From the NCBI GenBank assembly GCA_051294905.1, contig CM119371.1, forward strand, positions 14,386,001 through 14,450,000: a stretch of 64,000 nucleotides of DNA, written 5' to 3'. The notes below the pieces were generated by a model. The model did no database searches. It was not told the DNA's origin and was given only the letters and a program-made list of their open reading frames with translations. Within the stretch, counting starts at the first letter, position 1. Each line of letters starts with the position of its first letter. Source of the DNA: Botryllus schlosseri. Lineage: Eukaryota. Positions 29,101 to 64,000 of this stretch are shown here, piece by piece. The translations under genes were made by a program, and so were the position numbers.

Positions 29101-32100
29101 TATGTGTGCCAAGCAAAATATGTCTACAGAATTCCGGCGTGTCTTCACATTCCGCCCCGCATTCATCATCCAAATACATGCCACATCTTGGACGTTTATC
29201 GCATTTAGTCACTTCGATGTCGTTCAATCCGTTTGGAGAACACGTAAAAAGGCTTTGTCGTTCAGAAGTTGTGTTTATACATTTCGGACAGTCTTTCAAA
29301 ACAAGGCCATTGATATCTGTGAATTTGGACTTGGCAAGGCAACTGTATCCAACCGTACCGTTACCCCAAGAAATTTGATTACTGTTGCAGTTGCGTTGGC
29401 TCTCGCAAAAGGCGACGGTCTCATTATATTTGTGACGACACAGGCATTCGTCGCTCAAATCCAGACAGTCCACTATGCCGTCACATACCTGGTTGACGTT
29501 GATGATCAGCCCGTCTAAGCACTGGAAGCATTTCTCGATGTCTAGCGCGCCGCTATGCTTAAAACATATGTCGCGTTGATCGGGACAAGTGGAATAGACA
29601 GTCAAAGTCGGATCATTAGCATGACGCCATCGGTCAATCAGTTCACGTGGCAGCGTGCATCGCTGTCCGTTTACTTCTGGTGTTTTGTAGAACGTTTGTA
29701 ACGGACACTTGAACCCTACTTGTTGCCTAGGCTCGTCTTCGCCACCGGCACACGAGCGGGCACCGTCGCAGAAATCGGAGAAATCTTTATCGCGGTTTTC
29801 ATGCTCTCTGCACTTGCCACCGATGTACACGTTCGTGTTGTCGCATTTCATAACGCTCTGGAACCTGACGTCCGGCGAACAGTTGAATTCGTCGTCGTTC
29901 AGGTCGATAACGCAATCGCAGGGCTGAACGAATCATAAGGCGTTGAATGAAGTAAATATGCATCAGTAAAAAAATGTAGGCTCATAGACTCATCAGAAAA
30001 AATAGAAACTCGAATTGAATGAGAAATATTCTACTGTCCTTTTTATATTTATTACATGTTACACGTTATTTAGTTTCAGTTTATGCATGATGAAGTCTCG
30101 GTAAAACCACCTACTTGATTTTGAGAGTTGGGTATCTCATGTTTTTATATGTACTTTTATTATACTGTCAGGAGTCGCTAAATTGTACTTTGGAATTCAA
30201 TTAACTATTGTTATTTATATACAATCTTCGCTCAACATCAAGGCTATTTAAGCTGCACACTGCTCGGAAGGCAGCGACTAAGAAAATGTGCTTTGTACCA
30301 TTGCATATACATTTCCGTGCAGTAGTTCTCGAATTGGGGGCGTGAAAGCTTCAGAGGGAGGCGATTTTTTTCGCGCTCCGCGTGATTTACCACTAGCTTA
30401 TAGTTGTTGCTCTGTGTATTGTCAGACTTTGATATTTCAGAATTCACTCATCAACAGATAGTTAAAATGTATCATGTTTAACATTGTTTCGAATCATGAC
30501 GGCAAATAGATATTTTTTTAATTAACCGTCACTTTCTCATCACCTAATATCCACACATTTACTGAGCAGCATTTATTAACAATAAAATTTGGAAACAAAA
30601 TTAAAATACACAGGAGAATATAGCTAAAAATTTCACTCGGCCCGCCAACGTAGTTTTTACTTCTCATCAGAAAAAATAGAAACTCGAATTGAATGAGAAA
30701 TTTGCTACTGTCCTTTTTATATATACTACATGTTACACGTTATTTAGTTGCAGTTTATGCATGATGAAGTCTCGGTAAAACCACCAACTTGATTTTGAGA
30801 GTTGGGTATCTCTTTTTTTTATATGTACTCTTATTATACTGTAAGGAGTCGCTAAATCGTACTTTCGAATTCAATTAACTATTGTTTTCTTGGATTTCAC
30901 ATGAAACCGATCTAAGCGAGTAGTATGGGCAACTTTTAAACATACATAACATTTTCGGTATCGTGACGTAAAGCAATTCTGAAGCAGATCCTGAAATCTC
31001 CACACTACGTCACAATTCTGCTACCCAAGTTCAAGACTTGTATGCTATCATCAGTTTGCGAACCCATGAAATGTCCTGGTTCGTGTGAACGCGGATGGGG
31101 ACCTATGACGTCACGTGACGTCATATTGCTAATTCAAAACTTTCTATATATTAATGTACAATGTACCTTGTAGATGATACCTAGAACATACTGGATTTTC
31201 AACGTCACATAATGTATCAACTGGAACAATAAAATGCTATATATTTCCAAAAAATCGCTTTGCCAATAATTTCGACGAGGAATCGGCTAGACCGGACAGA
31301 TGTGTTTTTAAGAGTTGAACACCGGTTTACTTGCGCCACATATTATCCAAAAAACAAGTTATACAGTAGCCAACACCAACAACCCGATCGGACGGATTTG
31401 GTTTTTATGATGCAATAAGGATATCAAATAAAGATAGATTCCGCACGCCTGATGATTTTTTACATGAGACATCGATGAATTCTTCTTATCAATTTCGTTG
31501 ATGTAAATAACTGATTGGATGACTAAGCACAATTCACTTAATTCCTGCATGCAGTGTGTATCGTTCTTGCTGTTGTGGCGGGCAAAGCTCACAGAGTCGC
31601 TCAAGATTCACAAACAGAAAGCTGAATATTCCGAGCAAACTTTCGAGCATATAATTTTTAAAATTGGCAAAGGTCGATGCCCGTTTCGTGCTGAATTTCT
31701 TTCCATGCTGCCAGCGCCATGCGGAGAGTGGTCGGAAGTTGAAATGCAATGAATTTCAACCAAAGACGTTGTATTGACTTGAAAAATTGTATTACATGAA
31801 AGTCATATATGTTGCGATCATAGTCAAAGGCGCAGTCGGGAACGTTATGTGTCTTTGCCATCACCTATCTTTGTGGAAATGGATTTTCGGCACTCGTTCA
31901 TATCAAATCGACAGCACAGATTTTCAAGACAGGGCCGTGTATTTCAAGAAAGGCAGCTACGGAATTCGCTTTGAAATAAGACAGGTGGCGGAGAGCTAAA
32001 TTTGAATTAAAACTGTGTGGGTGTGTGCATGTGTGTGTGTGTGTGTGTGTGGCGGGCGGGTTGCGCGGGTCCGTGACTGTTCAACGGGCGTCCACGAAGA

Positions 32101-43482: not shown

Positions 43483-44686
43483 CTGTAGGGAATGGTCTTC
43501 GTCATAATTGAAATATTTTCTAAACTTTTCATCAAAGCATCATTGCTAAATCCTTTTTATCACGTCACAAATCTCAATCGCATAACGCTGAAGCTGCATT
43601 TTTGGAAAATTCAAATGCAATTTGCCAATCTGTTAAATACTATATAGAAATGTACCCGTAAATGATGTAGCGTATATAGCCTAACTTATATATATAGAAT
43701 CGTTATGAATTTGCGACCGAATAAATACATGGCTACTGCTAATTAATAAATTGAATTTTAGAGGTAAATTCCCTTCAATGAGTTATCGCCATCATTGTCA
43801 CATTGTCCTCGTCAACGCGTGTTCGTATCGGACTGTTGTCGGCCTAGGTTTGCTCATCATCGAATCGCATGTCGTCGCATAATGGTGTATTTCAGAAGGT
43901 CTCCTGCTTTATGAGAGGGGACTATGCAAATGTAAACACGAATACGTGACATTGCATCAATGTGAGACACTTGATGGAAGCAGCGAAGGATTCTCTTGAT
44001 AGTTAGCGTCGTGATGTCCGTTGTCGTGTAATCACCCAGCTTGGCCTTACCGAACCATTTCAAGAATGATTAATACGAAGAGTATTAATAATACGCGCTC
44101 GTGCACCATATGTAAGAGTCACGATTGTGTTTAGAAAAATCGCGTGTTAACCAATCGGATCGTAACTATAGGGCTGGGTGAAATCTAGTAGATGAGTGAT
44201 TCGATTCTGAATCACGTATTACGCTTCGAGTCGAGTATTCGAGTATCACTCATTATGACGTCACAGCTGAATGCACCATGTCAAAGTTTAAGTATGTATA
44301 CCTTTAATGCCACCACAAAGAACATAAAGTCCGTTATCCGTCCCTTTGGTATTTTTTCGACCTTACCGATTTCATTGCACTTCTTGGCAATGTTGTGGGA
44401 TGATCATGGCTTCGTAAATGTGCTATTTCCACTAACGCTCATATCTTTGTCAAGTTAATACTGTTCAATGTTCATGCTATCATAACAATATGTTTCGCAC
44501 AAGCGCCCTTCGCGTCATACAAGGAAACTTGCAATATTCATAAGGACATTAAGCGATTCGGTATTAGACTCTATTTTGTTATACCATCATTACACAAATA
44601 AGTATTTCTCAGTGGTTCTCAGTCTTTTTGACCTCGCAGCACCCTATGAACGGGAAAAATACTTCGCGGCACCCTAGCACGTCGAG

Positions 44687-46783
44687 TGTTTGCGATTGCG
44701 CATGTTATTTGTTGTTCTCTATTTGATGACGATTTTAAAGGCATCAGTTTCCAATGCAACTGTCCAATGCAACTAATCGTCTGATTTTAATTCTGATTAT
44801 TTGATTACTGTTCTACTCGCCTTTTCGCTTGCCTATTTATTTTCCTCGTTGCTGTTGCATCATGCTCCATTCCATCGAGCAACGGACGAGCGAGCACTAT
44901 TGCAAATCACTCGATTGTATTAGCATCTCAGTATTGTCAAAGTAAATCCGAAGTTCACATTGTTTATCATTCGATTTGGGCTGCCTGATTCTGTTCGAAC
45001 ACAAACGCAAGGTTAGCGAGTCTAAGAGCAGATTCAGCTGAGCAGACAGGATTCGACGAATACTATACCGGCACTCATTGACATCGGAGTGTCGCGCCGA
45101 AACAATTCGCAATACAGGGTTGTCTGGAATCAATCCGCTATACCATCCCGTCTACATTCGGGACTCTGCTGCCCATGATGGATTGATCGCCTCTGCTTCG
45201 CATCGAATCTGCTACATCTTATGTCGTTGCATTCAGTTGAATGATGCCGGTTGTCCTTGAACGGAACGGACGATTGCCCATTGCCACAATCCACGTTAAC
45301 TGTTGCAAGTATGAAGACCAGTTTCATTCAGTTTATCTAGTTTTCGTCTTTCGGCGTTTGCCGAGCAATCACTTCGATTGACTGCCGTATTCCAGATCTT
45401 TGCATAGACGCATGTTTGGAGACGCCTCAACGATTGCGACGATGGGTTCAAGTTGGTGCCGGACGCCTCTGTACCATTGAAGGTGGTTTGTTCGCGTCAC
45501 TATAGTAGAGTTGCCGGACGCATCCGTACGATTGAATGTGATTTATTCTCGTCACTATAGATTTGCTGAACGCCTCTATGCTCTCGCCAGCAGGGTTGCT
45601 GAACGCTGCTTTACCATTTTAAAGTGATTTATTGAACGTCTGTAGGATCGGAGGTTGTAGCTTCTAATACGAAAGATATTTGCCATTTAACTTTGCCCCT
45701 TGTGTATTGCATGATAACTCGACAGTTCGGAACACTTTTACAGCTACTGGAAGCCTCACTAACATTTGAAAGTGATTTATTCTCATCACTAGTAGAGTTG
45801 CTGGACGCCTCTGTACGATTAAATGTAATTTATTCTTATCACTAGTATAGATTTGCTGAACGCCTCTCTGCCATTTTAATGTGATTTGTTCTCTCCAGTA
45901 GGGTTGCTGAACGCTACTTTGTCATTTTAGAGTGAATTTCCGAGCGTCCGTGGGATCTAATACGATGGACATTTTGTCATTTAGTCGGTACGCCGTTAGA
46001 CCAAAATTAGTTGATCTCTGACCGAGTCTCTTTCTCCGACCGAGTCGCTTATCTTGATGGCTTCAATAGGCTGATCCATCGAACTGTTCTGTTTCGAAAT
46101 TGACTGGACGTGACATGCAGACTATTCAACATTCTTTCTCTTTTCACTCTGAACTCCAAGTTTCTCGGAAGAACACGACTAGTCGACCATTATCAGGAGT
46201 GTTCGATTCCGAATTCATGAGGTGTTCGATTCCGAATTCATGATGTCAAAGATTAGATTGATGTATGCTTACCGGGTATTAACTTGCCCATTTACTACAT
46301 TGATGCAATTCTGTTGACTGGGTTCAGTCAAATGGGGAGGTGCTTGCAATTGCGCATGTTATTTGTTGTTCTCTATTTGATGACGTTTTTATAGGTATAA
46401 GTTTCCAATGCAACTGTCCTTCATTCCTGTTTCGCTTGTCTAATCATTCCAATCGTCCTATTTCAAGTCATGATTATTTGATTACTGTTCTACTTGCCTA
46501 TATATTTTCCTCGTTGCTGTTGCAGCATGCTCCATTCCATCGTGCAACGGACGAGCGAGCACTATTGCAAATCACTCGCTTGTATTGGCATCTTAGCATT
46601 CTCAAATCAAATCCGAAGTTCAGATTGTTTATCATTCGATTTGGGTTGCTTGATTCTGTTCGAATGCAAGACTGATACGCAAGGTCAGCGAGTCCCCAAG
46701 CAGATTCAGCTTCCTGTTCAGCAGACAGGATTCGACGCCTGCTAAACCCGGCACTCGTTGATATCGGAGTATCGCGTCGAAAC
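44687..46783. repeat. Direct repeat of ~420 bp (44687-45103, 46342-46783) flanking a degenerate ~55-bp tandem array (45415-45950)
   Basis: gcgcatgttatttgttgttctctatttgatgacg...cgagcgagcactattgcaaatcactcg...gcagacaggattcgacg is shared by both copies; inner units read ggacgcctctgtac...tgatttattctc. Confidence 0.85.
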
Positions 46784-49198
46784 ATCGAGTGCCCGCAGTG
46801 GCGAGATAACATAATAACACGTTATACAGTTGCAATACCAACGCGTTGCGGCTCCGTGTCCGACCGAGGTCGACTCAAGAATCCCTTCCTAAGTGTCCCG
46901 AGGTTCTGAAGGCGGTGACAAGAAAAAAATGGACATGCACCTTCGCCCAGACCTCAACATCACGACCCAATTAGCCGACTGGGTGACCTTTTGTTGTGAT
47001 ATCACCTTGGATGCCACTTCCTTGTTTATAATAGAACAACCTTGGCGCATGTCGCCCAACCAGGTTATTTGCGCCATGATAACGAATGCTGGGTATGCTT
47101 TTCGGACGACTTCCAGTCATGAATCCATTCATCATTTACCTCGCTCTCTAGCATGCGTCCACGCAAATGTCTTTTGCTGCCGATTTTCGAAGGTCGACTT
47201 CACTTGATCAGTCTTAGCTTTTCGTACGACACTGCATACGCAGTAAGGTCAGTGATGAGGAGCCCAGATAAACCTTCATCACACAGAAACTTGGCAGAGG
47301 CGTGACTCGAACCAACAACCATCCTGCGCCACTCGCTTCCCATTAAACGCTCCTATATGTGGGTGAGTGAGATGATAGTGTAGTATGTGACATTTGAGGC
47401 CCCGGTTTGATTCTTGTCAGCAGCATGTTGCGAAGCGTCAGAGATATATCTGAGATTCTACTCGCGTACTTTGCTGAGCTTACGCCGGACTTGCAACAAA
47501 GGCCCAGATATAGACCCTACCAAGGACGGATTCGTGGAAGAAAATGAAAAGAACGATGAAGTCAAAAACAAAAAAGATCATGACCGAAAATCGTTACATC
47601 GGGAATTCATATCGCATTGTACATTATGTGTACTGCGCGGCTACTAAAAATTGAACCGATGAATGTGCCTTACTAAGAATTTGGATTCCCTAATATCTGC
47701 TACATTTCGAACTTGTTTACCTCATTCTCTCGCGGCACGCCTGAGAAGTCAATTTGGCGCACTATAGTGTGGCAAGGCACACCAGTTGAGAACACGTGTA
47801 TTAGCTTATATTGACATGGGTGCCGATTGCATGGACTTAACGATGTTAAGGATCACATTGTGGGCATGCCATGCACTCGTCTGTACAGTACACAGTTATA
47901 GCTTCCCCTGACATTATAGTGAATCCCACTGTGGTGGTCCAACACTGCGACCAAGACATGTAGGATAAGGAGAGCCTTGCAAGCCACAAATATGATCACT
48001 GGTTAGTGGTTATATAACACTTGGGCTACTGAAAGTACCATTTAGTGCTAGTCAATTATGCCTCTATGCAGACAACAACAAACAAAACAGCAAAAAACAG
48101 TATGTTATCTACCGGTTATTGCTGCTCCATATTACGAGATATCATTTCTTTCTATTGAATCTTCCTTTTACGTGTAATTTTATTTTTAAATAAATGGGAA
48201 TCCCACAGAAATAATAAAAAACGAACAGTGCCATGAATCTGCTGCGTCGAATACATAACTCATTCCACGTTCTAACAAGTTATTTGATGTTTCGTTCAGA
48301 ACAGCTATCTAGAATGCATAGCAATGCAATCTGGATAAGGAGAATGGTTTTTGAATTGTTGTATTAGGACGTGGCGAATATACGTGTTCTGGTAACCTCT
48401 ACTGTTATTTACGCAGCGTCATATACGATGCATGCAACTTTGCGGTGTTACAAGTCATCACATTATTCTCCGCTAGAAATATGTGTCTACTGAGCATTTA
48501 TTTTAAGCCCCGTCTGGTCGGATGGTCGCGTATTAATAGATATAGTTGAACCAACTGCAATGGTATACCCTATATGCTAATATTCAGAGTAACCTGAAGA
48601 CAGCAATCATATTATACAGCGCATGCACGATTCAATATATAGAATCCGAAGTGGCCTATTGAACTTAGCACCGTTGACGCGAATAACTATAGAAATAATT
48701 GATATTTAGTGTTGTATTTTGATATTCATGGTTTTCGACAGCATTCATCTTTTTACACCAGGTCGACATTCGTTATTACGATTCTGCTGACTTGTAGCAA
48801 GGCTCACTTCCAGGCTACTGTAAGACACCTAAAGTATAATAATTCCTATACCAAAACGCCTTATTTTATCACAACAAGCACATATCAGACCTTGAAAACG
48901 CATCACGAACTACGTGATATGAATTGCTTAAACGACATAATCCGGAATTCCAGTCATTTGCCACAATTTCCGTTATGCATAGAATAATGACATGTTCACA
49001 GCTTGCATATAAACCGATGTGCATTCCAAATCTGATTGAGAGAGATTGATCCGATTTTGCGAAGGTACCAATACATACATGAAGAGAATTCGAGGGGCAA
49101 GTTAAGACTCATTTTCATCGCTAGACGCTTTATGTTATCCTTAACTTCTTCTTCATCCAGAGTGCAATTGTGGATGTATCTTATTTACATGCTTTAGG

Positions 49199-49892
49199 TC
49201 AGGTCTCACCAACACGCTACCCGCGAGTCATATTTTGTGGCCCGTGATATCATGTGAGATGTCGAAAAGGCGCTTAGTAAAGCATTTTGACATGATGAAC
49301 TTAACATCAGTATCAAAATATTGTTGTTGTTCAAAATAAGGTATTCTTCGGAGCCAGCCATCACTATGCCTCACTATATAGCTGTACGGCTTCGACAATG
49401 GAAATAGCGTTTCACGGTGGAAGAAATAACTAATGTGCATGGGCATCTGGGCATATTGCCTTGACGTGCAATGGCCCAGACACTGCCAACTCATATGAGC
49501 CTGGGGCTTCCCAGCAAAATCAAGCTTAACGATAAGATAGTTTTACAGAAAGTGATGTGTCTAGCTAACACCAACATCGATCCTTCAATCGCTGAAAAGT
49601 GTTGAAAAGTACCGTGCCCAGCTCTTACTTCAAATAGAATTAAAGTAATGATCAAGATATTTTGTTGTACTTTAATTCTATTTGTATTTCTTAAATAAAA
49701 TAGGTTTTCTTTTATGGTAACTATATGCCCGTCGCCCATATTAAAGAGCACAGCGTTGTACGGATGAAACGTTTTAAAGCGCGGTTTTTAGACTGTGCGG
49801 TCCATTTTATCTCGATATTGAATTCATGCGGTACGCGGCCGCAACCAAAGTTGAAAAGTGGCCCGTGACCCGTTTTGAGTTGGTGACCCCTG
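49199..49892. mobile_element. hAT-Charlie MITE
   Basis: CAGGTCTCACCAAC / GTTGGTGACCCCTG; TSD-like CTTTAGGT / CTCTAGGC. Confidence 0.65.
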
Positions 49893-51087
49893 CTCTAGGC
49901 CAAAGTGATATTACGTGTTAAATACTACTCCAAGTCGTTTCGACGCGCTCCTGTCATTTCAATATATCGAAATCTTGTGTGTTTGATCTGATGAAAATTT
50001 CCGCAATGCTTAATTGATTGTAGCTTTGGTAAATGCCTTGCGGGGAAATGATTTTGAATCATTTGAAAATCAGGCAAATGCTACGGGATGACTCTTCAAG
50101 ATTGGCCAACTTTGAGAAAGTCCTTGTTTATACAAACGATTTACCATTGATTGCTTGGTTTCGTTTTTATCAATCCTCTTTTCCATTCGGTTGGTCTTCT
50201 AATTTTTCAAGATACAATGCTTTATTGCTATATGTTGTTTCGTTCCAACGTGTTTGTAATTCTACTGCGATTTGATCATGGGGATCTGTAGCCAATGAGG
50301 CATATTGGATGATTTTAAAAGCAGTATGGAGTGTCCGTTAGGTATTTCGACGAAATCCAGCGGAATGCAATTCGATAAACTGATGATTTATCTGTCTTTA
50401 TTAGAGTGGTCATTTGGTCTAGCACTGGTCGTCCAACCCAATTTCGTCGGGGGCCATATCAGCTAATTTTTGCTACCTACAGCAGATCAGTCTTACACGG
50501 GGTGGGTTATATAAACCTTGAAAAAATATAACTACAACATATTGGTTGGTTATACACATCGATCGGAGTATTCTAGACACGATAACTACATTAGTCAATT
50601 TGTTTGGAGACACCGAGGCACGGTTTCAGAAATCTTACCTGAGTTTCGGAGGTTTAGCTAGGCTCCTCCTCACCATACGATCCGCGTAAGCGATGACTTA
50701 CAAAAGTCTAGCAAGAAAAGGGTGATGTCGGTCAACCAGTGTCTTTGGAGGATTCGTAAACCCTGTCAGACACTATATTGCCGTAAATATAGTATTCGAA
50801 ACCGTGTGATCGACCAGTGGGTTTAAAACTTCGAAGATAGAAAAACATTTACCGTTAGACCTATTCTTAATGGGTTGAGATTATAGCATCCGCGAATATG
50901 GTGCTGGTACAATAGTATTACAGTGATTTTGACAATGCATTTATTTCAATGGATGGAAATTCGGCATCCTGGTTTCTAACCGGAAGTAACGTAGAAATGC
51001 ACCAACAAGTATCTACTTCAAATGCTCATAGTAGTGCACAGATACGTCGCGAAACAATAGAATCAGCCTAATCTATAAGTCGATGCC

Positions 51088-51130
51088 ATGATTTCGCTAT
51101 ACGTTTGTGGAGCATTTATCACTATTTTTG
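51088..51130 (+). CDS. Class C GPCR putative first coding exon (signal peptide)
   Basis: ATG ATT TCG ... MISLYVCGAFITIF G|gtaagt (phase 1); joins in frame to the second AG of cagctag at 52554. Confidence 0.55.
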
Positions 51131-54100
51131 GTAAGTAAATATATCTATTATTTCGAGATCATACGGATAACTTATAGTGATATGATATCTGAATTCATTT
51201 AACCACCTTTCGATATCGATCCGAAGGCGATATATACGTAAGCATAGATTCGGTAATGATTTATACTCGTGTTTTATGATACAGATAACCTGTACTGTAC
51301 ACTTATTATGTGTAGTTGAATGTAGGCTACGTACGGTGATGATAAACGCGCGGTAACTATGCCCTTATGTAGGGTTGCACATTTAAAACAAAGGGATTTA
51401 ATTTTTTTTGTAAAATTATACCTTATATGTGTAAATACTTTCCCAAAAACATGTTGTATGAGCCTACGGAAAATTACCACCCGATATAGCCGAGGCATAC
51501 GATATGGGATGGTTGGAACCCTCAAAATAGTCGGTTTAACAGCGATATTACGTACATATTTTGTCAAAAGATCTACATTTACCCTATATTTCAATTGTCA
51601 ACCCATTATGACGTCATCATTGAATGTTTGTGACGTACTGGCTTTAAAAAATAGTTTTAAACATGTTTGTTTTAAATTGATTTTTGTTTTAAATGCAACC
51701 CTAGCCCCATGGGTGCTGTGCTGCATTTTACTAATGAACGCTTGACGGCGAGCGTCCAGTATCTGTTTAACGTCATTGTACCGCTGATATTGAGGCATTG
51801 TAAAAATTTGGATATCTAAATACCGCTCAATTTTATATGTATATATATATATATAATTTATATATATTCATTTCAGTGAGAATATGACACAGCAAATACC
51901 TTACCAATAAACTCTGACTCAAAGTATGTTCGTGTTGGTGTTGGCTTTGATGCACTCAAAATAAAACTGGAAAATTGGAATGTTTGTCTATCATTGAGTG
52001 TATTTGGACGGTAATATGTACGCTTAGCGTCAATTAAGATGAACCCGCTGATGAATCACATCACCTCATCATGTGAAAGCATTTCCACACAGGACGTACC
52101 GGCGGAGATGACGCGCAATCAACTGGGACGAGTAACGTGAGTAATATTCTACTGCATAAATTTTGTCATACGATGCGGGATTTCTGAAAAGCAGGCGGGT
52201 AATCAGATAGGACACAGCGACAATATTCGATTATACGCTGGTGTTGACGAGTAACGGGTTAGCAACAAAACTATCGAAACAATAACTTTCGTCGATAATT
52301 GTCTACTATTTACAATGGGCACATCACGTTGATACTCAAAACCTCGACTCTCATGACTCGACTCGAATTATCTAATTTCATGTGGAGGGAGATTCCGCTG
52401 CGCCACTGGAATGGACTAGCAAATGAATATGTGAAAAGTATTCAATTCAGTTTCCAACGGAGGTTCTCTTAATTAGCAAGAGCCATTAGAACGTTACGTA
52501 ACTATCTGACCATACCCTGCCAACCATCCACGGGGTAATTATTCTTACAGCTAGTTATCACACGTCGGGATGCAGACTATAAAGTGCAATATCGACCAGG
52601 CGATATTCTTATTGCTGGCATGGTGCCGGTACAAAAGTATAGCGAAAGCGAGAACTGCATCATCATTCGAGAGAGCGGGATACAAGCTGTTGAAACGATG
52701 AATATGATCATCGATCAGGTATGAGTTTCAATCTCACTGCAAACTCAATCTGAGTAATTCGACTGTTTCAAAATTAAAGACACCACGAGATATGAGGTAG
52801 TTGTGGTGCTTTAGTCTAGGGGTGTGTGACCTGTTGGTGCAGGGAATATAAGGCACCGTGATTTCGGCTCATAAATAGTCTTTACCGTGTGGAATGAACA
52901 TGGCTGAAGATACATTTATATACCCTGAACTTTCGAAGTCGTCGTCTCCATCAGCCCTACCGGGGAATTTGATCACGTGAGCTGAAAGAGGATAGCAAAT
53001 TAACAGTAATGAATCCAAATCAAAATATCACCAATAGAATTGCTTCAAATAATGTTCAAGCGTCGCGCGACTAGAAAACATGCACATAGTAAGTCGATAG
53101 AAATAATTAGATAGACAAGTCTGGCACCTGATGTTGTGCGTGAATCGTGTAATACCGGAAATGTGTGTAGGTTTGTGAATCGTGTGAAAAGAGTACATTA
53201 ATCAAATTACACGAATAAGGTGGACATTGGGCGATACCAACAGAAGTAGGATTGAATAACCTACGGTAGCCCAAGACTGACGTATTTGTTGGGATGTGAA
53301 AAACTGGTGTTTGGGTCTTAACCGGGACGCTAACAAATTGAATTATTCGGTTTGATGACCGGAAGAGCTAGGAAATCATATGTGAAAAATTATGTGTTGG
53401 TAAGCCTTGTCGGTTCAGATCATGTACTAATCGCAAAGATTCATCGAGAATTTTTTCTGTCCGTTTCTTGCGAACTTGTAGGATTTACATAACCTTGCAA
53501 GTGAACCAGGGAGAACCTACCAAATCGGGTAAATCTAGTATTCTATCAATTATTCAAAAGTATAATAATTCAATCAATGGTCGCAAGGACGTAAATGACC
53601 AACTCAACATACTAAAAATCTCAGAAATAATGACAAATGTCAGCAATGGTTCCATTATGAATCTAAACTACATGGTGTTGTCTAAGACCAGTTTAAATCC
53701 TATTTGCGACTATCGGATAATAAACACTACTGACACTAATGTGAAGAAGATCAGGCCTGTGTTCGGCAAATCTCATGACCATGGAGACAAATATGTATGG
53801 CGGTTTGGTTGACGTCTCTGCACAGAGAGACCGCCTGATATTAGGCTGATCTATCTTATAGGTTCGACCGATCACAATGAAATGTAGCCTATGCACCTAG
53901 ATAATGTCCATAAATGAACTGCCTGGACCAGAATGGTAGTAAAATTCTATAAGCAGAAGAAGACTTCAGAATCATTCGAAAATACGATACGTTCTTCCAA
54001 TATAAGTAGATACGATAATGATCGCATGTCCTCGCGTGTCAGGTTAATTCTGATGATAAGATCCTGCCTGTAATCAAGCTGGGAAGCATTATAATCGGTA

Positions 54101-57100
54101 CTTGTAACTCGGATACTGAATCTGTAAGACGGGTAAGAATGAATATTTTTGCAACTGGGTTTCTATCATTGGTATATATCAAGTGTGGCCAACTTCCACC
54201 TAATTGCGATCGACTGAAAACTTTTTCATGTAGCCGGCTTACTTTTATATTGCGTGTTAATTAGTTTATGTCTCCATTTAATACAGCCCATGAGTGGAAA
54301 TTTACTAAATATGAATAATTTACTAAAGTGAATATTAAGAGCTCGAAAAGAATTAGTTAGCCATTTCCGTCTTTTGCCGCTTGACGAATCAGGGGGAGGT
54401 GATTAAGTCATTATGTATTGACTAGTCTTCCATAATCAGGCAGTGTGCCAAGTCTCTTCAAGTTAATGACCACACTATTCGACTAAACTGAAACGTAGCA
54501 ACCTGTTGGCTACACCTGATATATCGGCTGCATACCCTATTGGATTATGATATATGATATATGCAGGGTTGCCATACCGTCCTTATTTCTAATATTTGTC
54601 CTTATTTTGAAAGGTCATGACTTAAAAAACTCAACTGTCCTTATTTTTAAGAAATGTCCTTATTTTCGACTTGCGTCCTTCTTTTGTCTTATTTTCAACA
54701 ACTACAGAACTTCGATCGTTTTCCTCCGGAATCTGTGTTGCATAATATTCTAAAATTTGGCTTTTGAGTTGTGGTTTTATGACATAAATGAAAATAGCTG
54801 CCGTTATGTACATACCACATGATTTGACTTCTAAGTGGTGAGATAGCTAGGGCGGCAGTGAGTGGTGGCAGTTTCGGCTGTACCAAGTCATCGCAGCTGA
54901 CCTCATTTTAGCAGTAAACAGCAGTACAAAGTTTCTTCTGTTTAGTCTGCGGGGAAGGCAGTATTTATTGTGTAGTGAAAAAGGTAGCAGTGTAGTCGAT
55001 ACTTGGGTTAAAAAGTAGTCAAGCTATAAATGATTGATAAATTTATCTCAATTATATTGCGCATATAGTTTTAACTATTAATAAGGCTAAATCTGATTAG
55101 TTAAAATGAGCAAGCGTAAAAACGTTATTCGTAACGATTACGAGAGAGAATTCAAAAGTATCAAACGAAGCTTGGAGAGCAAGTGTTTTTCACATTGCAA
55201 TATCTGTAATTGTGACATTAACCTGGGGGGCCATAGCGAAGACCGCTATTTCAACTCACACAGAGTATGCACAAAAACGCTTTTTAATGCTAATCTAATT
55301 TTTCGACTGTCCTTATTTTTTGGTCCATGTCGATGGCAACCCTGGATATATGCATGAACTTGTCAGTACATGTGTGCATTGTGCAATGTGCACGAACTGA
55401 CTGGCATAAGACTGGCATAATGATTAAACTGAATCAGACGTACGAAGGCATTAGCATGAGCGCTGGTACGTATGGTTGCTTTCGTGCCGTTACAGTTAAT
55501 TTCCAATATCATGCCGCACCTGTCAGACGAAGATGCTCGGTGTTCTAATCTACAAACCGACGCGCCGTCGCGCCCACTGGTGGCAGTAAAGGGTTAATTC
55601 TTATAGTGGTATTCGTGCCCTACATCCATGGTATGAATGGTGGCAATTACATATCCCCCCCCCCCCCTTGCACACATAGTCGAAATAAACGGTCTTTTTA
55701 TAGCTCTACCCATACTCATGTTCCATAGATGTCATCATGCTCTGCAGTATTTTCAGCATAATTGCAGATATATCACTACCAGGGCTCAGATTAGCCTACA
55801 CATCGGCCATCTCATTGCCCATTTTTTCAATTTCATGATAGAAAATGGTGTCTACCCGAATTATCTGAAAACTGCCAGAGTTGTCCCGGTTTACAAAGCC
55901 GGAGATAGAACTAATGTCACCAACTACCGACCTATATCTGTCCCACCGTGTATTGGAATTGTGTTCGAAAAATTGCTCCTCTTCCGTCTATCTTCGTTCC
56001 TCGCAAAGATGTCCATCATTTCTCCACAAAAATTCGGCTTCCGCAAAAAACATCAAACCTCGCATGCCCTGCTAACAGTGGCTGAACGAACAGTACTATG
56101 ACATCTTGGAGAAACGAAGTGTGGGATGTAGCATTTTTCTTGATCTAAAAAAAGCGTTTGACTGCGTCGATCACAGTATTCTCCTTTCGAAATTAGCGCG
56201 CTACGAGTTCCGGGGTTCACAACTAGAGCTCATGAAAAGCTACCTGACTGGGAGATATCAAATGGTTTCGATATCCAACACTTTGTCCTCCCCTCACCTT
56301 GTTACCTGTGGTGTTCCGCAAGGCTCTGTTCTAGGACCTGTCCTTTTTACTTTATATGTCAATGATATCTTTGAAACCTCATCATTGAATACCACACTCT
56401 TCGCTGACGATACTCACCTCCTATCTCACGTAGCCTACCTACTACCGCAAGCTTGAATGCCGTCACCCGTGATCAAATGCCCAAAGTGCATGAGTGGACG
56501 TCCCATAATAGCCTTCGGGTTAACGCTGCGAAATCCCAATTATTGGTCGTGATAACCGTTGACATCGCTGCTGCGAAATCCCAATTATTGGTCGTGATAA
56601 CCGTTGACATCGCTGGCCAACCAATTTCCAACACTAAAAATGCCAAATACCTTGGTGTTTTACTGGATTCGGACATGTCCTGGAAGAGTCACATACAATC
56701 ACTCAAACGATAACTATCGAAGGTATGTGGTCTATTTCGCCGCCTTAGCTACACTCTGCCAGTCAGCGTGCTGTTGATACTCTTCAACACTCTATTCCTA
56801 TCAAAGTTACAATACGGAATTTTTTGTTGGGGTGCTGCCTGCAAGAATACAATTGACCCACTGCAAAAACTTCAACATCAGATCATCCGTATCATTGCCA
56901 AAGCCCCACGGGGGCCTGGATGTGCAACTGATAAATCGCTTCTCAAAAGATTTGGTGTTCTAAACTTAGAAGATATGAGGAAGCTAGAAATTGCCAAGTT
57001 TGTGTATCAGTTCCATTGCGGTCAATGTCCCTCAAATTTCAACGACTATACTTCACCTCGGAGACAAAAGCGCACAAGTACAGCACACGCGCGTCAACGA

Positions 57101-58774
57101 AGAACAACTACCATATGATCAGGACTGAATACAAGAAAACGCATTGCTCTATCAAATATGCCGGACCCCAATTGTGGAACAGCATATCGCCGGCTATCCG
57201 ACAGTCGTCGAGCATGTCCGCATTCAAGTCGAAATACGAGCAATTTCTTCTAAATCAATTCTAGCCAGTCTCCAGGAGTACCGGACCACGACCTAACATC
57301 AACCTCGCCCTCCGCCACATGCCACCTCATTTTGTCGCTTGCGTCTTATATTCTTTGCATTACTTTTCATTCAGTGTGCATGCCTCTTATTTACTTCGCC
57401 CAGACTAAGGTGGGTGTCTGATATTATTGGCTACTCCAAGTTGTTTCGACACCTTCATATCTTTTCATTGTATCGCAGTCTTGTGATGTTTGAAACGATG
57501 AAAATATTAATAAACCTGATTGAGAGGATAAGGTAATTTAATATTTTAAAATCCTAATCATCTGTGCGATGCAGGATTGCAATCTGAAATCTGAATCCAA
57601 ATACAAATCCAGAAATAATTTCGTGTCAACTCCAAATAGGAATATGGCTGAAGCTCACTGTGAAATGAAATGTAGTCAATTGACTTGTCTCAATTTTAAA
57701 GTTGCCTTGCTGGCTCAGTGCTCGTGGTCCGCACATTGATTGGGTTGGAAATTTACGCCTGGGTGCACCTCCTGCGGCTACTCTAAACATTTACCCAAAA
57801 CCGGGCCCGGACTGGAACCGGTTTTCGCAACCAGATTATAAGAAATTAAAGAACAATGATTTCAGGAGTCAGCGGTGGTGCGTCAAGCTCCGTGTCTATT
57901 CAGGTGGCGAATATTCTACAGGCGTATTCAGTTCCACAGGTAGGCTAAGCAACACCCGATAATATGGTGATACCAATACTCGAAATGATTTTAAAATTCC
58001 AATTCCGGGCTTTTGACATTCCAACTGTCTGGATGAAGCTTGTTTATTTACTTAAAATGGAAGACAACATAGTCACTAACAAAATATTGCTGGCTAAAGC
58101 AACTATAGCTACCCTGCATACATACATGCAGTTACGATTTCCAGTGATTCTAGCTGTGCGTATTATGCCCTATTATAGGTATTGGTTTTGTTTTCCAAAT
58201 GAGTTAACGTATAGCTCGTGGAAACATAATTGCGAGTGGTCATGCGTTACATGGTGTGATATAAGATCTGATACTCTCTCGTAGGAAATGTACTCCAAGT
58301 GAAAAAAGCTTTTCGCATTTCCCATGAGCTACACAGACCTCGCTAAATATCGCCAACATAGCAGATTTACGTCAGGCATGTTGTACAGGATGGATTTCTG
58401 GTGAGCGATACAAATTCACTTTGTCAATAGTTTTGACCCAACACTGCAATGTTCCTGTGGGATTTGGTTCTTTCTCCACTTCACAGGGAGGATAACGACA
58501 ACATATACTAATCTTCATATTGTACATATTGTAGATGCATATTCTATGATTGGTCACTACGGACGAAACTGTCTTGGAATTGATTGCAGTTAATCTAGTC
58601 ACGTCTATTATTCGCTTACGGCCAATAATGCTTAACAATACTCGCAAATCATACCTGTAAAACAAAGACATGAGTCATTGATTTCAGAATAGTTATTGGT
58701 CAAGTAGTTCAGAACTCAGCAACAAAGACCGGTTCAAGTCTTTCTTCAGAGTTGTGCCCCCGGATGGCAAGCAG
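51088..58774 (+). CDS. Class C GPCR (metabotropic glutamate receptor-like), 5' exons encoding signal peptide and N-terminal Venus flytrap domain; continues beyond the window
   Basis: Ordered exons encode PGDILIAGMVPV..C..IRESGIQAVETMNMIIDQ | VNSDDKILPVIKLGSIIIGTC | GVSGGASSSVSIQVANILQAYSVPQ | NSYWSSSSELSNKDRFKSFFRVVPPDGKQ. These match the mGluR/CaSR VFT blocks GDI..GGLFPV, GIQ..EAM..ID.IN...LP...LG..I.DTC, GVIG..SSSVS..VANLL..F.IPQISY.STS..LSDK..Y..F.RVVP.D..Q. Confidence 0.85.
52551..52718 (+). CDS. Class C GPCR VFT exon (start 52551 or 52555)
   Basis: ttcttacag|ctag|...ITRRDADYKVQYRPGDILIAGMVPVQKYSESENCIIIRESGIQAVETMNMIIDQ|gtatga. Confidence 0.87.
54043..54132 (+). CDS. Class C GPCR VFT exon
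   Basis: tgtcag|VNSDDKILPVIKLGSIIIGTCNSDTESVRR|gtaaga; 90 nt, phase 0-0. Confidence 0.87.
54564..55344 (+). mobile_element. hAT (Blackjack-like) deletion derivative in a class C GPCR intron
   Basis: TIR CAGGGTTGCCAT / ATGGCAACCCTG; TSD GATATATG; GTCCTTATT repeats; transposase N-terminus MSKRK...FSHCNICNCDINL at 55106. Confidence 0.88.
55411..55465 (+). CDS. Class C GPCR candidate linker exon (tentative)
   Basis: aag|TGIMIKLNQTYEGISMSA G|gtacgt supplies the phase 0 to 1 bridge needed between the flanking exons. The acceptor is weak, with an alternative start at 55438. Confidence 0.4.
55790..57522 (+). mobile_element. 5'-truncated L2/CR1-group LINE (reverse transcriptase pseudogene)
   Basis: KTARVVPVYKAG...NYRPIS, FLDLKKAFDCVDH.ILL.KL, GVPQGSVLGP.LF.LYVND, FADDT, KYLGV.LD..MSWK.HI, GPQLWN; several frameshifts, a 45-bp tandem duplication at ~56525-56614 and AATAAA at ~57509. 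Confidence 0.93.
57866..57939 (+). CDS. Class C GPCR VFT exon (ligand-binding Ser loop)
   Basis: tttcag|GA GTC ... (G)VSGGASSSVSIQVANILQAYSVPQ|gtaggc; 74 nt. Confidence 0.87.
58688..58774 (+). CDS. Class C GPCR VFT exon
   Basis: tttcag|NSYWSSSSELSNKDRFKSFFRVVPPDGKQ|gtgaaa; 87 nt, phase 0-0. Confidence 0.9.
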
Positions 58775-58999
58775 GTGAAAGTTGGATGCTATATTGAGAT
58801 CGCAATTATGTAAACTAAGTGTGCATTGTTTGGGGGGGTGGGTATTACCCCCCGTGAACATAGAGCAATGTTGTGACAGTAATTCGTGCGAAGCGCGAAG
58901 AACACTTTCAAAGTTGAACAACTCTATCAGGATACACCCAATTTCATGTTGATTTAATGTCGTCTGTATATACCATTGTTCTACTATTACCGTCTAGAC

Positions 59000-60122
59000 C
59001 AGAGGTCTCAAACTTAAATGTGCTCGCGGGCCAATTTCCTAGTTTTTGATGACGCTGCGGGCCGCAGCATCAATCAATAGGTATATTCAATGTATAATTT
59101 CCAAGTAGGCCTTATTTGCAGATAGGCATATCACAAAAATCGTGGAAATGTAATTTACTATTGTAATATTCACGCCTAACACGGAAAAAAATCCCAATTT
59201 CATATATTTGAATAAAACTGTTTTTGTGCCGGGCATAATTTCTTTAATTAATGAGCTATAGACATCATACGAGAGGATGCATCATGACCAGGGCTTTGGA
59301 GCAGCCGTAAATTTACATTGCTCCTGCTCCGGCTCCGGAGCTTTCTTCTATCATACATTACCTCCGGCTCCAGCTCCGGAGCCGCATTATTACCACTGCT
59401 CCGGCTCCAGCTCCGGCTCCGGCTCTGAAAACTATCGAAGGTGTCTGTCTATATGATGGGTGGATAACCCGCGAGAAGGTTTTGAGTAACCCGCGAGCTA
59501 ATTTCCCATTATATTATCGAAATTCTGTTCATCGAAATTGAATTGCTCAGATTGTGAACTTGCAAGGCCAACCAAAAATATGATTAGTCTAGCCGCGACT
59601 CTCGGGATGTTGATGACTGAAATATCAGTTCCGACGTATTGGCAGATCCAGGGTCCAGTCACATTTTTAGTAAATCGTCGTACATTACAATAAACTAGAA
59701 AAGTAGTAAACTTTATCTTCACGCTTCGCGTGTTTAATTGTCACACAATTTCTTGCTTTGTAGCCTAGCCACACCTGAAAATGAAAAAACGCCTGATTTA
59801 TACGATTGAGTCTAACTATATTCGCAATTACAAGAGATAGTTTTTTCGCGTTCGCGCTCGCAGAAAGATCGTCGACGATGAAATGTAGGCACAAAATGAT
59901 TGTCGTATATTAGCGGAAATCTTCGATATCGATATGCCCAGATGCCGAATAGTCCGGCCCTTGCAAACTGAGCCCAGCGGGCGGTATACAGTGGAGCAGC
60001 AATATACCCAAGTAATAATAATATTAACTTTGAAAATTTTACGCGCCTGGCGCGGCTAGTGGGCAGCGCACTCGTTCGTCAATTTCATGTGGCCCTTCCG
60101 CCAAAAAGGTTGGCAACCCCTG
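59000..60122. mobile_element. Composite hAT MITE remnants (Charlie-type ends; GGCTCC-repeat hAT fragment at ~59289-59425)
   Basis: Left end matches the 23840 family; right end ...GGTTGGCAACCCCTG; flanks GTCTAGAC / GTCTAAAT. Confidence 0.55.
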
Positions 60123-60326
60123 GTCTAAATATATTACTAATTTACCCGTAGATTAGTTATCAATTGTAGATTCTAGTTTCTGTCAGCCGTCAGTAACATC
60201 CGATGCAGCAACGAAGACATAGGTGCCGCCTTGCCGGCTTGTGACGTCATATTGAAAACTTGTCAAATGTCGATAACATCATAGTTGCACAAGAACGCGC
60301 TTTACTCGGTGGCATTGCTGTGTACA

Positions 60327-62200
60327 CACTCTTAGCGAAAAGAGTGGTTATACACACCCCAAAAGGTGGTACACGAAAACAGAACTTACGTAACCCTGCC
60401 GGTGTGAATGACCAGAATCCACCCCATTCCTTGCGGTGTATATCGGATATCTCACCCTAGCCATTAGAATTGATTGGGGCGGAATTTCAATATATACACC
60501 CCACTTGAAATCCTGCATCTTCTTCCAAATGGCACGCTATTGCAAATAAACTTTCTTGATTGCATATATTCGATATCAATTGAACCATAATAACATAAAA
60601 TGGAAACATATTTCGTGAAATAACAAAAACAGAGATCCCAGCGACGGAGAAAAAAATTCAGTGAAAATACTGCTCGAAGAACATTGCCCATGTAGGTTTC
60701 CGAAAAACACTCTTGTACGGTGAAGGCTGAGTCACTATCTTCAGCAAGAACTTGTGGCATCATCCTGAAATCAAAATGCATATTCACAACCCAAATAACA
60801 GGCACATATGCTAACATGCATAAGTTAATGAAAGACCACAAAAATAGAAGCCATTACAAAGTATATATATTTTCACAAAGTACTTACAAAAAATCAGATG
60901 TTACACTTGCTAAGGAATTGCAGCACAGACTGTGGTCCGATAGGGTGAACTTACCGTTATAGGAAACATGTTCACACACGATCACTGTATGTGTGGGCAA
61001 TTAGGCATCGACAAGATGTTAATTGATGGATAGTTTTCATGCAAACCGCATGTAACAGGCAGACTTGGACAACTAGAAAACGTTCCCTTTTTCCAAATTG
61101 GATTGGAATTATATTACAACTACAAGTTTTTTTTCGAATTAGAGTAGAATTAAAATTTGAGCTACACAGTTGGAAATTAGATTAAAATTATCATTCTACC
61201 TAACAGTTTTTTTCAAATTAGATTAGAATTAGAATTACTGAAATCGCCAGAAGTTGAATCCAACTCCGTTATCATCAAATCATAGTTCATCTTATGAGCA
61301 TGAGAATAGCAAATTTCTACTGTACAGTAGGGGTGTTCAAAAATGACTTTTTCTTTCAAATCGTACTGGCTACTTGATAAAATTGCTAGGTTACCTAATT
61401 GAAGCCTGCACACCAAATTTGGTTTGATTCCAACCAGTAGCCGCATTGCTACAGGAGAAGAAAGTTTTTTATTTATTATATGAAAATGAACGAAAAAAGA
61501 TTTAAAATTTTCTGTTCACCCCATTAAATTGTTAGGTTGTCTATAGCAACAATGCTCAACCGATTTGGCTCAATTCCAACCAGTGGAAGCGGAGTTATTG
61601 CTGTCACAAAATTTTGGATTTGAATAAAATAGTATTTACGGTGAACGATTCTTTAATCATTTATGACTGTTGTGCCCACCGTAAATACTATTTTATTCTA
61701 ATCCAAATTTTTCGAAATCAATAACTCCGCTTCGGCTGGTTTGATTTGAGGCAAATTTGGTGGGCATCGTTTCTATAGACAACCTTACAATTTCATGGGT
61801 GAACAGAAAATTTTGAATTTTTTTACTAATTTTTAAATAATAAATAAAATACCTTTCTTCTCCTGTAGCAATGCGGCTACTGGTTGGAATTGAACCAAAT
61901 TTGGTGTTTAGGCTTCAATTCCGTAATCCAACAATTTTACCAAGTAGCCAGAAGAATTTGAGAATAAAGATTCATTTTTAACACCCCTACTGTACAGCAA
62001 GCTTGGCTTGTTTCGCACTATACAGTTCTCCTGTAGCATTTCCAGGAAAACCAGACATTAGATTAGACTTAAAATTAGACCATAGAAAGATTTCATACAT
62101 TCGATTAGAATTGGAATTAGAGCATAGAAACATTTCAAAAATTAGAATAGCTTCAATTAGGATAATTAGACAACTAGAATATCTAGCAACATCGCCTAAA
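60327..62200. mobile_element. Possible second EnSpm-like element (left end plus satellite-related repeats); extent unresolved
   Basis: CACTCTTAG at 60327; aaattagagtagaatta-type units at 61070-61240 and 62050-62190 resemble the 36960-38560 array, including taattagacaactaga. Confidence 0.4.
61328..61989. mobile_element. Near-perfect palindromic (foldback) hAT-type MITE
   Basis: TAGGGGTGTT / AACACCCCTA; TSD CTGTACAG; arms pair along the whole length, centre ~61660. Confidence 0.92.
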
Positions 62201-62543
62201 TCAGAAATAACTGAATATATTTTTGAAGATTCTTGCTGTTAGCAGTGTCATGTGCCATTACTAATTTTATATTAGTCGCAAAGATTCATATCGCAATTTT
62301 CAAGGTAGAATCCTCTGAAAATCTGCGTACCATACTTAACTATTTTTCCAACATTTCGTATTCTACTTCCACTTGGCGTAGCTTTGACTTGTATTGGGAA
62401 CTGTTGCATCTACTTGTAATCGAGTATAAATTGAAGTTGGTATTTCTACATCGACTTGAGTAGCAACGCTGGTAACTTTGACCATCTCTGCTTTGGTTTA
62501 CCTCATAGATGCGACTAGGAAAGTTGACATCAGGTGTCATTAC

Positions 62544-63442
62544 TAGGGCAATTTTTTTTGACATGTCAAAAAAAGTCAAAATTATGTCAAAATTGTAGCG
62601 TTAGGTCAAAATTTGTCAAAATTGTTTACAAAATTTGTCAAAATTGTTTACAAAGTCAAACATTTTTTGACCTCTGCATTTCGTTTGTATCGTAGATTTT
62701 GCGCTGTCGGTGAACTTATCATTTGATATTTTACAGGTTGTAGCCTACTTTATAGGCCTACCGTTGTAAACGGACAATCGCCTGCTCATTGTGAATCATA
62801 AAGGGTCAAATGAAACAAATATGGACATGGTTTTATGGTCAACGTACCACAATATCCTAGCTGAAGCAAGAATGCTTGGACATTGCATGGTTCTTATATC
62901 AAGAAGCGCAAGCTTACAAATTGTGATATAGACAACATTGTCAGAATGAAGCAACACGGTTTGTCACCAGCAGTGTGCACACAACTTGAGTGTTGTCAGC
63001 CAACAAATGCTGCTGTTGAACGTTCTTTCTCCGTTCTTGGCAAGCTACGTAGTAAGGACAGACACTTTCTACCCGAGAATGTAGGAAAGGATCTTTCGTT
63101 GTACTACAACAAATTTTAATTATTTCCACCAGAATACGTAATGTAACTACTGGAATTCTTCATAGGGCCAGATTTCGTTAAAATACTAGTTTTTCATGTA
63201 AAAATCTGTCAGTTTTTGAGCCAAAAACGTTTTTTCAGGCCAATCTACTTTGTAAGGACAGACAGTTCCAACCAGAAATAAAGATAAGTAGCACAATTTT
63301 AACATTATATGCGAAAACACCTAATTTGCATACGTGAGGTCAAAATTTGGTCAAATTTCAGTTTTTTTAAGTCAAAAAAGGTCAAAATTTAGATTTTTTA
63401 GGTCAAAATCTTCCATGTTTTAGGTCAAAAAAAATTGCCCTA
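62544..63442 (+). mobile_element. hAT deletion derivative with transposase C-terminal dimerisation motif
   Basis: TIR TAGGGCAATTTTTTTTGAC; TSD GTCATTAC; QPTNAAVERSFSVLGKLRSKDRHFLPENV...YYN at 62883-63119; GTCAAAA repeats. Confidence 0.9.
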
Positions 63443-63745
63443 GTCATTACCAAAGTTGTCATACCTGCTGGCTTGATAACGAGTCTTTCAGTTGTCGCAG
63501 CATACTCCTAAACTCGGTTAGTTCCAGTGATATAATCTTGCTCTTGGAGCATGCAGTCTTTAAGCAGCATCCTAAAATTTAAAAAATAATCAGAGAAAGA
63601 GATGCATGGACTTGATTTAAATTTGACTACTTGGTATTAATCCAAAACACGAAACGTTTTCTAGTTGGGCAATATTGACTTTCAGAATGGATTCAAAGCG
63701 ACCGCAGATACAGGTCTGATTAGGAAACCTTGACTTGCCTTAGCC

Positions 63746-64000
63746 CAGTGGTTCCCAACCTTTTTCGACCCATCGCCCCCTTTTCAAGGTCAACACAGAT
63801 CATCGCCCCCAAAATTTTGTGTACCGAAAATTGGGCATACAAACTGTAATCACCGGCGGGTTGACTAAAAAAAAGGTCAAATTTTCGGCTCGATGTCTAA
63901 TTTGACACACTTTTGTAACTAAATTTCCGTGGGTTGACTAAAAAAAAAAGGTCAGCCGTTTTGACGCGTCATCGCCCCCCTATCGCCCCTTCCTATTTTC
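63746..64000. mobile_element. hAT-Charlie MITE left part (cut by window end)
   Basis: CAGTGGTTCCCAACC followed by ATCGCCCCC repeats. Confidence 0.75.

What the first reader, a model, noticed from the sequence alone, without database searches (positions are those of the whole stretch)
51088..58774. Hidden mGluR-like gene in micro-exons, with a ligand pocket that lacks the glutamate-selecting Arg
Seen in sequence: none of the four well-supported VFT exons (74-168 nt) appears in frame in the ORF track. Established: mGlu1 uses Ser165/Thr188 for the alpha-amino-acid group and Arg78 (YGIQRVEAM) for glutamate's distal carboxylate. Here the Ser loop is kept (GGASSSVS), the ISYxSTS block reads NSYWSSS, Arg78 aligns to Ala (SGIQAVETM), and DTC reads GTC. 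Inference: an orphan amino-acid or chemosensory class C receptor tuned to something other than glutamate, comparable to insect mXR.
Basis: partly seen in the sequence, partly recalled or inferred. Interest (0 to 1): 0.7.

Follow-up and report, generated by a model that had tools for sequence, protein, structure and literature searches.

The report
Truncated copy of sea-squirt receptor gene
These small exons are only the front quarter of a sea-squirt glutamate-receptor-like gene, likely a dead partial duplicate of the intact gene next door, and the missing glutamate-holding arginine is shared by the whole family and already described.

Summary
The exons and motifs are real (7 exons, 51088-58774), but the gene stops there. 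No later Venus-flytrap, cysteine-rich or 7TM exon lies in the 31 kb before the next copy. Window 43619-58998 is a partial tandem duplicate of an intact 21-exon neighbour, B, 38 kb downstream. This copy has lost one base at a splice donor just before the Ser-loop exon, which shifts the frame. Its own changes are 13 replacement against 4 silent (ratio 1.0; B 0.20). 'GTC' and the N of 'NSYW' are such private changes; B has DTC and VSYW. Arg78 loss is family-wide (0 of 16 ascidian-clade proteins keep it) and was published for Styela with the same DmXR comparison (PMC9138782). The scan noted it before on paralog D (e1-9855214). Side result: three IQ-TREE trees and AU tests place the ascidian receptors with mGluR class IV, the mXR/mangetout lineage. 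One simpler tree disagreed. Three vertebrate class I-III queries found no other mGluR locus in this genome. Verdict: likely pseudogene of a known family.

The parts
43619..58998 (+). Duplicated block: collinear copy of the upstream region and first seven exons of neighbour gene B (G000:C1:14465605-14484569); ends 224 nt into the intron after the last exon
   Evidence: collinear blastn pieces at 75-92% identity; 13.3% mismatch over 8137 non-exonic columns; break shown
51088..51130 (+). Exon 1, ATG and short hydrophobic leader (signal peptide inferred), donor GTAAGT
52093..52136 (+).
52551..52718 (+). Exon 2 (168 nt): GDILIAG...SGIQAVETM; Ala at the Arg78 position; one codon longer than in B
54043..54132 (+). 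Exon 3 (90 nt): GTC where B, C, D, E, F have DTC; also a private Gly-to-Val change
55496..55585 (+).
55791..57531 (+). Intron stretch not shared with B, holding a broken LINE reverse-transcriptase frame (limits approximate)
   Evidence: gap between collinear pieces; RVT_1 E=2.8e-5 at 56079-56309
57866..57939 (+). Exon 4 (74 nt): Ser loop GGASSSVS (Ser164/165 equivalent)
58688..58774 (+). Exon 5 (87 nt), last exon of this copy: NSYWSSS...VVPPD; Trp at the Ser186 position and Ser at Thr188 (both as in B), Asn private to this copy
   Evidence: ANF_receptor E=7e-5

Best explanation
The window holds only the first seven exons of a class C receptor gene, a partial tandem copy of the intact neighbour 38 kb downstream, and it is likely a decaying pseudogene that makes no receptor. 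Shown: the copied block ends inside intron 5; nothing like exon 6 to the 7TM follows before gene B starts; one base is lost at the exon 3b donor. Computed: the homologous donor or skipping of exon 3b gives a stop after 199 or 169 residues; the cryptic donor gives a 213-residue fragment, under half of a Venus flytrap. Inferred: the copy arose by unequal crossing-over in a birth-and-death cluster (partial from the start, or cut later) and has drifted since. The intact paralogs (B, D, E, F on C1; H, I, J on C5) are likely class IV mGluRs. By established class C mechanism they would bind an amino-acid backbone through Ser165, Thr/Ser188, Asp208, Tyr236 and Asp318, close the flytrap and signal through the cysteine-rich domain and 7TM. 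With Ala/Leu/Met at 78 and Trp at 186 the side-chain subsite is predicted to prefer something other than glutamate; no ligand was tested.
For: Pfam 7tm_3 (22 matches of 42 candidates) and NCD3G (5 of 30) have none between this copy and B. Twelve downstream exons of B give no match better than E=0.10 in the 30.8 kb gap, while the same queries recover matching exons in C, D, E, F. B's exon 8 has 6 genome matches of 10 candidates, none a second near-identical copy. B models as 21 exons, 846 codons, no stop, all AG/GT. Donor score 10.6 bits in B, 1.2 here (146 of 147 family donors score higher). Polarised changes: this copy 13 replacement/4 silent (ratio 1.0), B 4/6 (0.20, p=0.014 against neutral). 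Other dead pieces in the cluster: C frameshifted in exon 12, relic exons at C1:14096606, 14120739, 14147267. Class IV: SH-aLRT 100 in three IQ-TREE trees; AU rejects grouping with class I, II or III (p 0.0001-0.0004) and a place outside I-IV (p 0.0001).
Against: No stop codon lies inside any of the seven exons, and all other splice sites are canonical. The cryptic donor (4.2 bits; 9 of 147 real donors score no higher) would keep the frame, and the copy's last exon would then join B's exon 6 in frame to 849 codons. The lineage contrast is not significant (Fisher p=0.10; 8 changes could not be polarised). Exons differ from B less than introns do (4.9% of replacement sites, 9.4% of silent sites, 13.3% non-exonic), so the copy was probably constrained for part of its history. 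The 130-sequence FastTree rooted on a CaSR-like protein put the ascidian clade near the base, not in class IV. B and C have Arg, and H, Styela P0002 and Ciona have Lys, at the Lys409 position, so the distal pocket is not free of basic residues in all members.
Confidence: 0.8

Rival explanations
1. Alternative 5' cassette: the copy keeps its own promoter, uses the cryptic donor, and splices from its last exon over about 40 kb to exon 6 of B, giving a full receptor with a swapped front half of the ligand domain.
For: The upstream region was copied too; exons are open; phases match, and the joined frame is open for 849 codons if the cryptic donor is used.
Against: Needs a weak donor and skipping of B's own seven exons. 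The swapped half carries Gly for a near-invariant Asp (126 of 133) and Asn where 132 of 133 are aliphatic. Replacement/silent ratio 1.0.
Confidence: 0.06
2. Assembly artefact: the block is the second haplotype of B's 5' end placed in tandem, so it is an allele and not a paralog.
For: It is a single extra, partial copy close to B; ascidians are very polymorphic (recalled, not tested); the E/F pair differs by a similar amount (9.6% silent, 10.1% non-exonic).
Against: No N gap in 580 kb around it; 13% non-exonic mismatch plus kilobase insertions; unrelated neighbouring units occur in four or more diverged tandem copies, as expected for a real duplication-prone region; a frameshifted allele would still be a null.
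Confidence: 0.08
3. One reading: this locus is itself a complete orphan receptor with a retuned pocket (GTC, NSYW, Ala78).
For: Class C exons with Ala at 78 are real.
Against: No downstream exons; donor lesion; GTC and NSYW private.
Confidence: 0.02
4. The copy makes a short secreted fragment (about 213 residues) or a regulatory RNA that modulates B.
For: Leader and open exons remain; read-through into intron 5 stops after 213 codons with the cryptic donor.
Against: The fragment is under half of a flytrap domain and is unlikely to fold (inference); no sign of constraint on the copy's lineage.
Confidence: 0.04

Closest known systems
Styela clava Sc-GRM3/4/7a/7b (Zhang, Dong and Yang 2022, PMC9138782; RefSeq 'mGluR4-like/7-like/3-like', P0002-P0005, P0007, P0009) and Ciona/Clavelina GRMs (P0008/P0310, P0010)
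   Same: Best database relatives; one ascidian clade with the paralogs (SH-aLRT 100); tandem arrangement; backbone residues kept, Arg78 lost. The paper already proposes low glutamate affinity or another amino-acid-like ligand and names DmXR.
   Different: This genome has 7 open copies, 1 frameshifted and 1 truncated, against 4 reported in Styela; B-F form a clade of their own. The window copy lacks the second half of the flytrap, the CRD and the 7TM. By my alignment some members keep Lys or Arg at 409, whereas the paper says both distal residues are lost (its Figure S1 was not seen).
mGluR class IV, including insect mXR/DmXR (mangetout) (Ramos-Vicente et al. 2018, PMC6307864; Mitri et al. 2009, PMC2695807)
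   Same: Groups with mangetout, hemichordate and amphioxus class IV-type proteins; non-basic residue at 78 and Trp/Phe at 186 shared.
   Different: Long ascidian stem; Lys409 not uniformly replaced; the Ser-Asp pair at 292-293 and Arg323 of mangetout are not kept, so canavanine binding cannot be assumed. No Ciona mGluR name turned up in the eLife mGluR supplement files.
Vertebrate mGlu1-8 (classes I-III)
   Same: Same domain layout in the intact paralogs; Styela P0002 matches mGlu8/4/7 structures at E 1e-157 to 1e-162.
   Different: Arg78 absent, bulky residue at 186; AU tests reject grouping with class I, II or III.

Membership tests
Functional class C GPCR (window copy) | Complete Venus flytrap domain | tested here: not met
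   Only about 200 codons; exon 6 onward absent
Functional class C GPCR (window copy) | Cysteine-rich domain and 7TM downstream | tested here: not met
   No NCD3G or 7tm_3 match between C1:14444775 and 14475600
Functional class C GPCR (window copy) | Continuous reading frame with normal splice sites | tested here: not met
   One base lost at the exon 3b donor; only a weak cryptic donor keeps the frame
Functional class C GPCR (intact neighbour B) | Leader, flytrap, CRD and 7TM in one open frame | tested here: met
   21 exons, 846 codons to the end of the last 7TM exon modelled, no stop; C-terminal tail not modelled
mGluR classes I-III (glutamate-sensing) | Arg78 | tested here: not met
   0 of 16 ascidian-clade rows; 3 of 3 vertebrate controls have it
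mGluR classes I-III (glutamate-sensing) | Groups with class I, II or III in a tree | tested here: not met
   AU p=0.0004, 0.0001, 0.0002
mGluR class IV (mXR/mangetout) | Clade with mangetout and invertebrate class IV proteins | tested here: met
   SH-aLRT 100; outside placement rejected p=0.0001; sister versus nested not resolved (p=0.19). FastTree on 130 rows disagreed. Rows for searches were chosen.
mGluR class IV (mXR/mangetout) | Arg78 replaced by a non-basic residue | tested here: met
   Ala, Leu, Met, Ser or Thr in 16 of 16
mGluR class IV (mXR/mangetout) | Lys409 replaced by a non-polar or acidic residue (PMC6307864) | tested here: inconclusive
   Non-basic or His in 10 of 16; Lys in 4 (H, Styela P0002, Ciona, P0001), Arg in 2 (B, C). 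The window copy does not reach this position.
mGluR class IV (mXR/mangetout) | Backbone-binding residues kept (Ser165, Thr188, Asp208, Tyr236, Asp318) | tested here: met
   16 of 16, with Ser for Thr188 in B, C, E, F; numbering other than 78 and 409 is recalled and was located by motif in salmon mGlu1
mGluR class IV (mXR/mangetout) | Not activated by glutamate | not testable with these tools
   Needs a cell assay; shown only for DmXR (PMC2695807)
CaSR / GPRC6A / T1R group | Closer to CaSR-like proteins than to mGluRs | tested here: not met
   mGlu structures score about 540 bits against about 290 for CaSR; the genome's CaSR-like gene is a separate locus on C12

The most novel reading that the evidence does not exclude
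Ascidians are the mirror image of vertebrates: every ascidian 'mGluR' is class IV (the mXR lineage that vertebrates lost), classes I-III are gone, and this species runs the family as a fast-turnover tandem array of amino-acid chemosensors, of which the window copy is a dead by-product. Ciona 'mGluRs' in epidermal sensory neurons would then sense something other than synaptic glutamate.
Probability: 0.55. Interest if true: 0.5.

Novelty: new member of a known kind. Interest (0 to 1): 0.25.

Why it matters
The flagged locus matters little: it is likely a truncated duplicate, and anyone screening ligands should use neighbour B or paralogs D-J. The side result matters more. Ascidian GRMs are named after vertebrate mGlu3/4/7 and are treated as glutamate receptors in Ciona circuit work (PMC11419600, passages). 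If they are all class IV, the closest relatives of vertebrates lack canonical metabotropic glutamate signalling, and the natural ligand of class IV becomes testable on a chordate panel with varied pockets (Lys, Arg, Leu, Thr, Ile, Ser at 409).

Tried and rejected
RNA: no RNA holder listed for the stretch. Four runs laid on 50500-64000 gave reads mainly on repeats; the bins that hold exons 1, 1b, 2, 4 and most of exon 3 had no raw-read depth, and no listed joint matched an exon junction (3-6% of each raw run read). Four other runs laid on B exons 4-6 gave 1 read in one run and none in three contig sets. The intact neighbour is as silent as the copy, so this says nothing about either. Exon 2 alone found nothing in the protein database or PDB. 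A de novo list of candidate exons between exons 3 and 4 was not decisive; paralog comparison found the exon. DNA-level paralog comparison was swamped by repeats. A single-sequence fold of Styela P0002 was unusable (pLDDT 38.8), so no structural check of the pocket was made. The automatic spliced models skipped or mis-cut short exons and were corrected by hand; models C-J run from exon 2 to the last 7TM exon only. The column labelled S165 was one off (it is 164); corrected. Rows dropped before trees: 130 of 148 used (fragments and near-duplicates left out); 50, 26 and 28 hand-picked rows, long branches left out.
Full report
Observation. The signal is well above chance: a Styela relative scores 59 and 41 bits on two exons against at most 27 bits in 10 shuffled windows, and a profile of nine exon-2 copies aligns GIQAVETM to GIQRVEAM of mGlu5, placing Ala at Arg78.

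Context. The window is G000:C1:14386001-14450000. Exon 2 has 8 matches of 9 candidates in the genome, and a ninth copy appears on C5. I call them F, E, A (the window), B, C, D on C1 and H, I, J on C5. The nearest database proteins are Styela, Clavelina and Ciona 'mGluR-like' proteins, so the animal is inferred to be an ascidian. Hand-corrected models give open frames for B, D, E, F, H, I, J (816-846 codons, no stops); C has a two-base frameshift in exon 12 in this assembly. Relic exons lie at C1:14096606, 14120739 (with a stop) and 14147267.

The window copy is truncated. Pfam 7tm_3 and NCD3G match the other copies but nothing between A and B. Twelve downstream exons of B find nothing better than E=0.10 in the 30.8 kb after A's last exon, and B's exon 8 has no second near-identical copy among 6 genome matches. 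Window 43619-58998 is collinear with C1:14465605-14484569, the upstream region and first seven exons of B; similarity ends 224 nt into intron 5, about 90 nt before B's exon 6, where a repeat begins. There is no N gap in the region.

The copy is decaying. Exon 3b is 91 nt in B, C, D, E and F; here one base is lost at the donor. A donor matrix from 147 family donors scores B's site 10.6 bits, the damaged site 1.2, and an in-frame cryptic site 7 nt on 4.2. The damaged site or exon skipping puts the Ser loop and NSYW out of frame, with stops after 199 or 169 residues; the cryptic site gives 213 residues. With C (and D-F where needed) as outgroup, A carries 13 replacement and 4 silent changes (ratio 1.0), B 4 and 6 (0.20, p=0.014 against neutral); the contrast itself is not significant (Fisher p=0.10) and 8 changes were not polarised. 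GTC and the Asn of NSYW are among A's private changes; those columns hold Asp in 126 of 133 and an aliphatic residue in 132 of 133 aligned relatives. Against a simple story: no exon holds a stop, and exons have diverged less than introns (4.9% replacement, 9.4% silent, 13.3% non-exonic), so A was probably constrained for a time. An in-frame splice to B's exon 6 is arithmetically possible but has no support. RNA data were uninformative (see Tried and rejected).

The pocket of the intact family. In one search, 16 of 16 ascidian-clade proteins keep Ser165, Thr/Ser188, Asp208, Tyr236 and Asp318, none keeps Arg78, and all have Trp or Phe at 186, as do mangetout and the hemichordate and amphioxus class IV-type proteins. 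Position 409 varies: Lys in 4, Arg in B and C, other residues in 10. Numbers 78 and 409 come from PMC6307864; the rest are recalled and were located by motif in salmon mGlu1. Mechanism by established class C knowledge: backbone binding closes the flytrap and signals through CRD and 7TM. A non-glutamate preference is inferred; members with Lys or Arg at 409 may keep weak glutamate responses. No usable structure was obtained.

Family placement. Non-ascidian best hits of Styela P0002 are largely insect proteins, several named mangetout or receptor B, with amphioxus and hemichordate proteins. A FastTree of 130 rows put the long-stemmed ascidian clade near the base. IQ-TREE on hand-picked subsets placed it with class IV at SH-aLRT 100: 50 rows LG+C20, 26 rows LG+G4, 28 rows LG+C20 with a CaSR-like root. 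AU tests reject grouping with class III, II or I (p 0.0002, 0.0001, 0.0004) and a place outside I-IV (p 0.0001); nested versus sister to class IV is open (p 0.19). Class labels are mine, from source names, motifs. Salmon mGlu1, eel mGlu4 and platyfish mGlu2 as queries matched only the C1/C5 clusters and the C12 CaSR-like gene (12, 18 and 15 matches; 40-51 candidates scored). These searches give lower bounds, so loss of classes I-III in this genome is likely, not proven.

What is known. Zhang, Dong and Yang 2022 (PMC9138782; parts 1-4 of 7 read, covering abstract to conclusions; figures and supplements not seen) report four tandem Styela GRMs in an ascidian clade, loss of the two gamma-carboxyl residues, the DmXR comparison, and expression in the anterior larval trunk and peripheral adult tissues. 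Ramos-Vicente et al. 2018 (PMC6307864; passages and a supplement search) define class IV by loss of Arg78 and Lys409 in all bilaterian phyla studied except vertebrates; no Ciona name appeared in its mGluR files. Mitri et al. 2009 (PMC2695807; passages) show canavanine activates DmXR. Kamesh et al. 2008 (PMC2396169; passages) count three Ciona GRMs. PMC11419600 (passages) names them by vertebrate orthology and finds one in epidermal sensory neurons; that gene was not tested here. Five searches found no paper assigning ascidian GRMs to class IV; most subscription journals are not in the library. An earlier scan note on paralog D (e1-9855214) reached the same family-level reading.

Verdict. Interest 0.25, carried mostly by the class IV placement.

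Noticed in passing
G000:C1:14540018-14540163 (paralog C, exon 12): Two extra bases against B shift the frame; C is likely a second dead copy, or an assembly error.
   Followed up: partly
G000:C1:14096606, 14120739, 14147267: Isolated relic exons of the same family, one with a stop, upstream of paralog F.
   Followed up: no
G000:C12:2204114-2224693, minus strand: A separate class C gene whose exons look CaSR-like by motif; the only other 7tm_3 locus found.
   Followed up: partly
window 28883-29932 and 13954-14616, minus strand: Open frames with LDLa repeats and a rhodopsin-type 7TM piece, likely parts of an LDLa-GPCR gene; a close copy of the LDLa frame lies near C1:14250859.
   Followed up: no
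G000:C1 near 14306762, 14331261, 14354953 and 14465314, minus strand: Four diverged tandem copies of a unit with a predicted secreted Cys-rich protein followed by a single-exon class A GPCR-like frame; one copy sits between the window copy and B.
   Followed up: no
window 21389-22033, plus strand: 215-codon open frame without a Pfam match; resembles a retroelement endonuclease by eye (recalled).
   Followed up: no
G000:C1:14172221-14191048 and 14215766-14236876 (paralogs F and E): A young complete tandem pair, replacement/silent ratio 0.34, about as diverged as the window copy and B.
   Followed up: partly
proteins P0126-P0129 and similar: Unnamed 2000-3900 aa proteins with 4-12 matching stretches, apparently many flytrap domains in one chain or fused gene models.
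   Followed up: no
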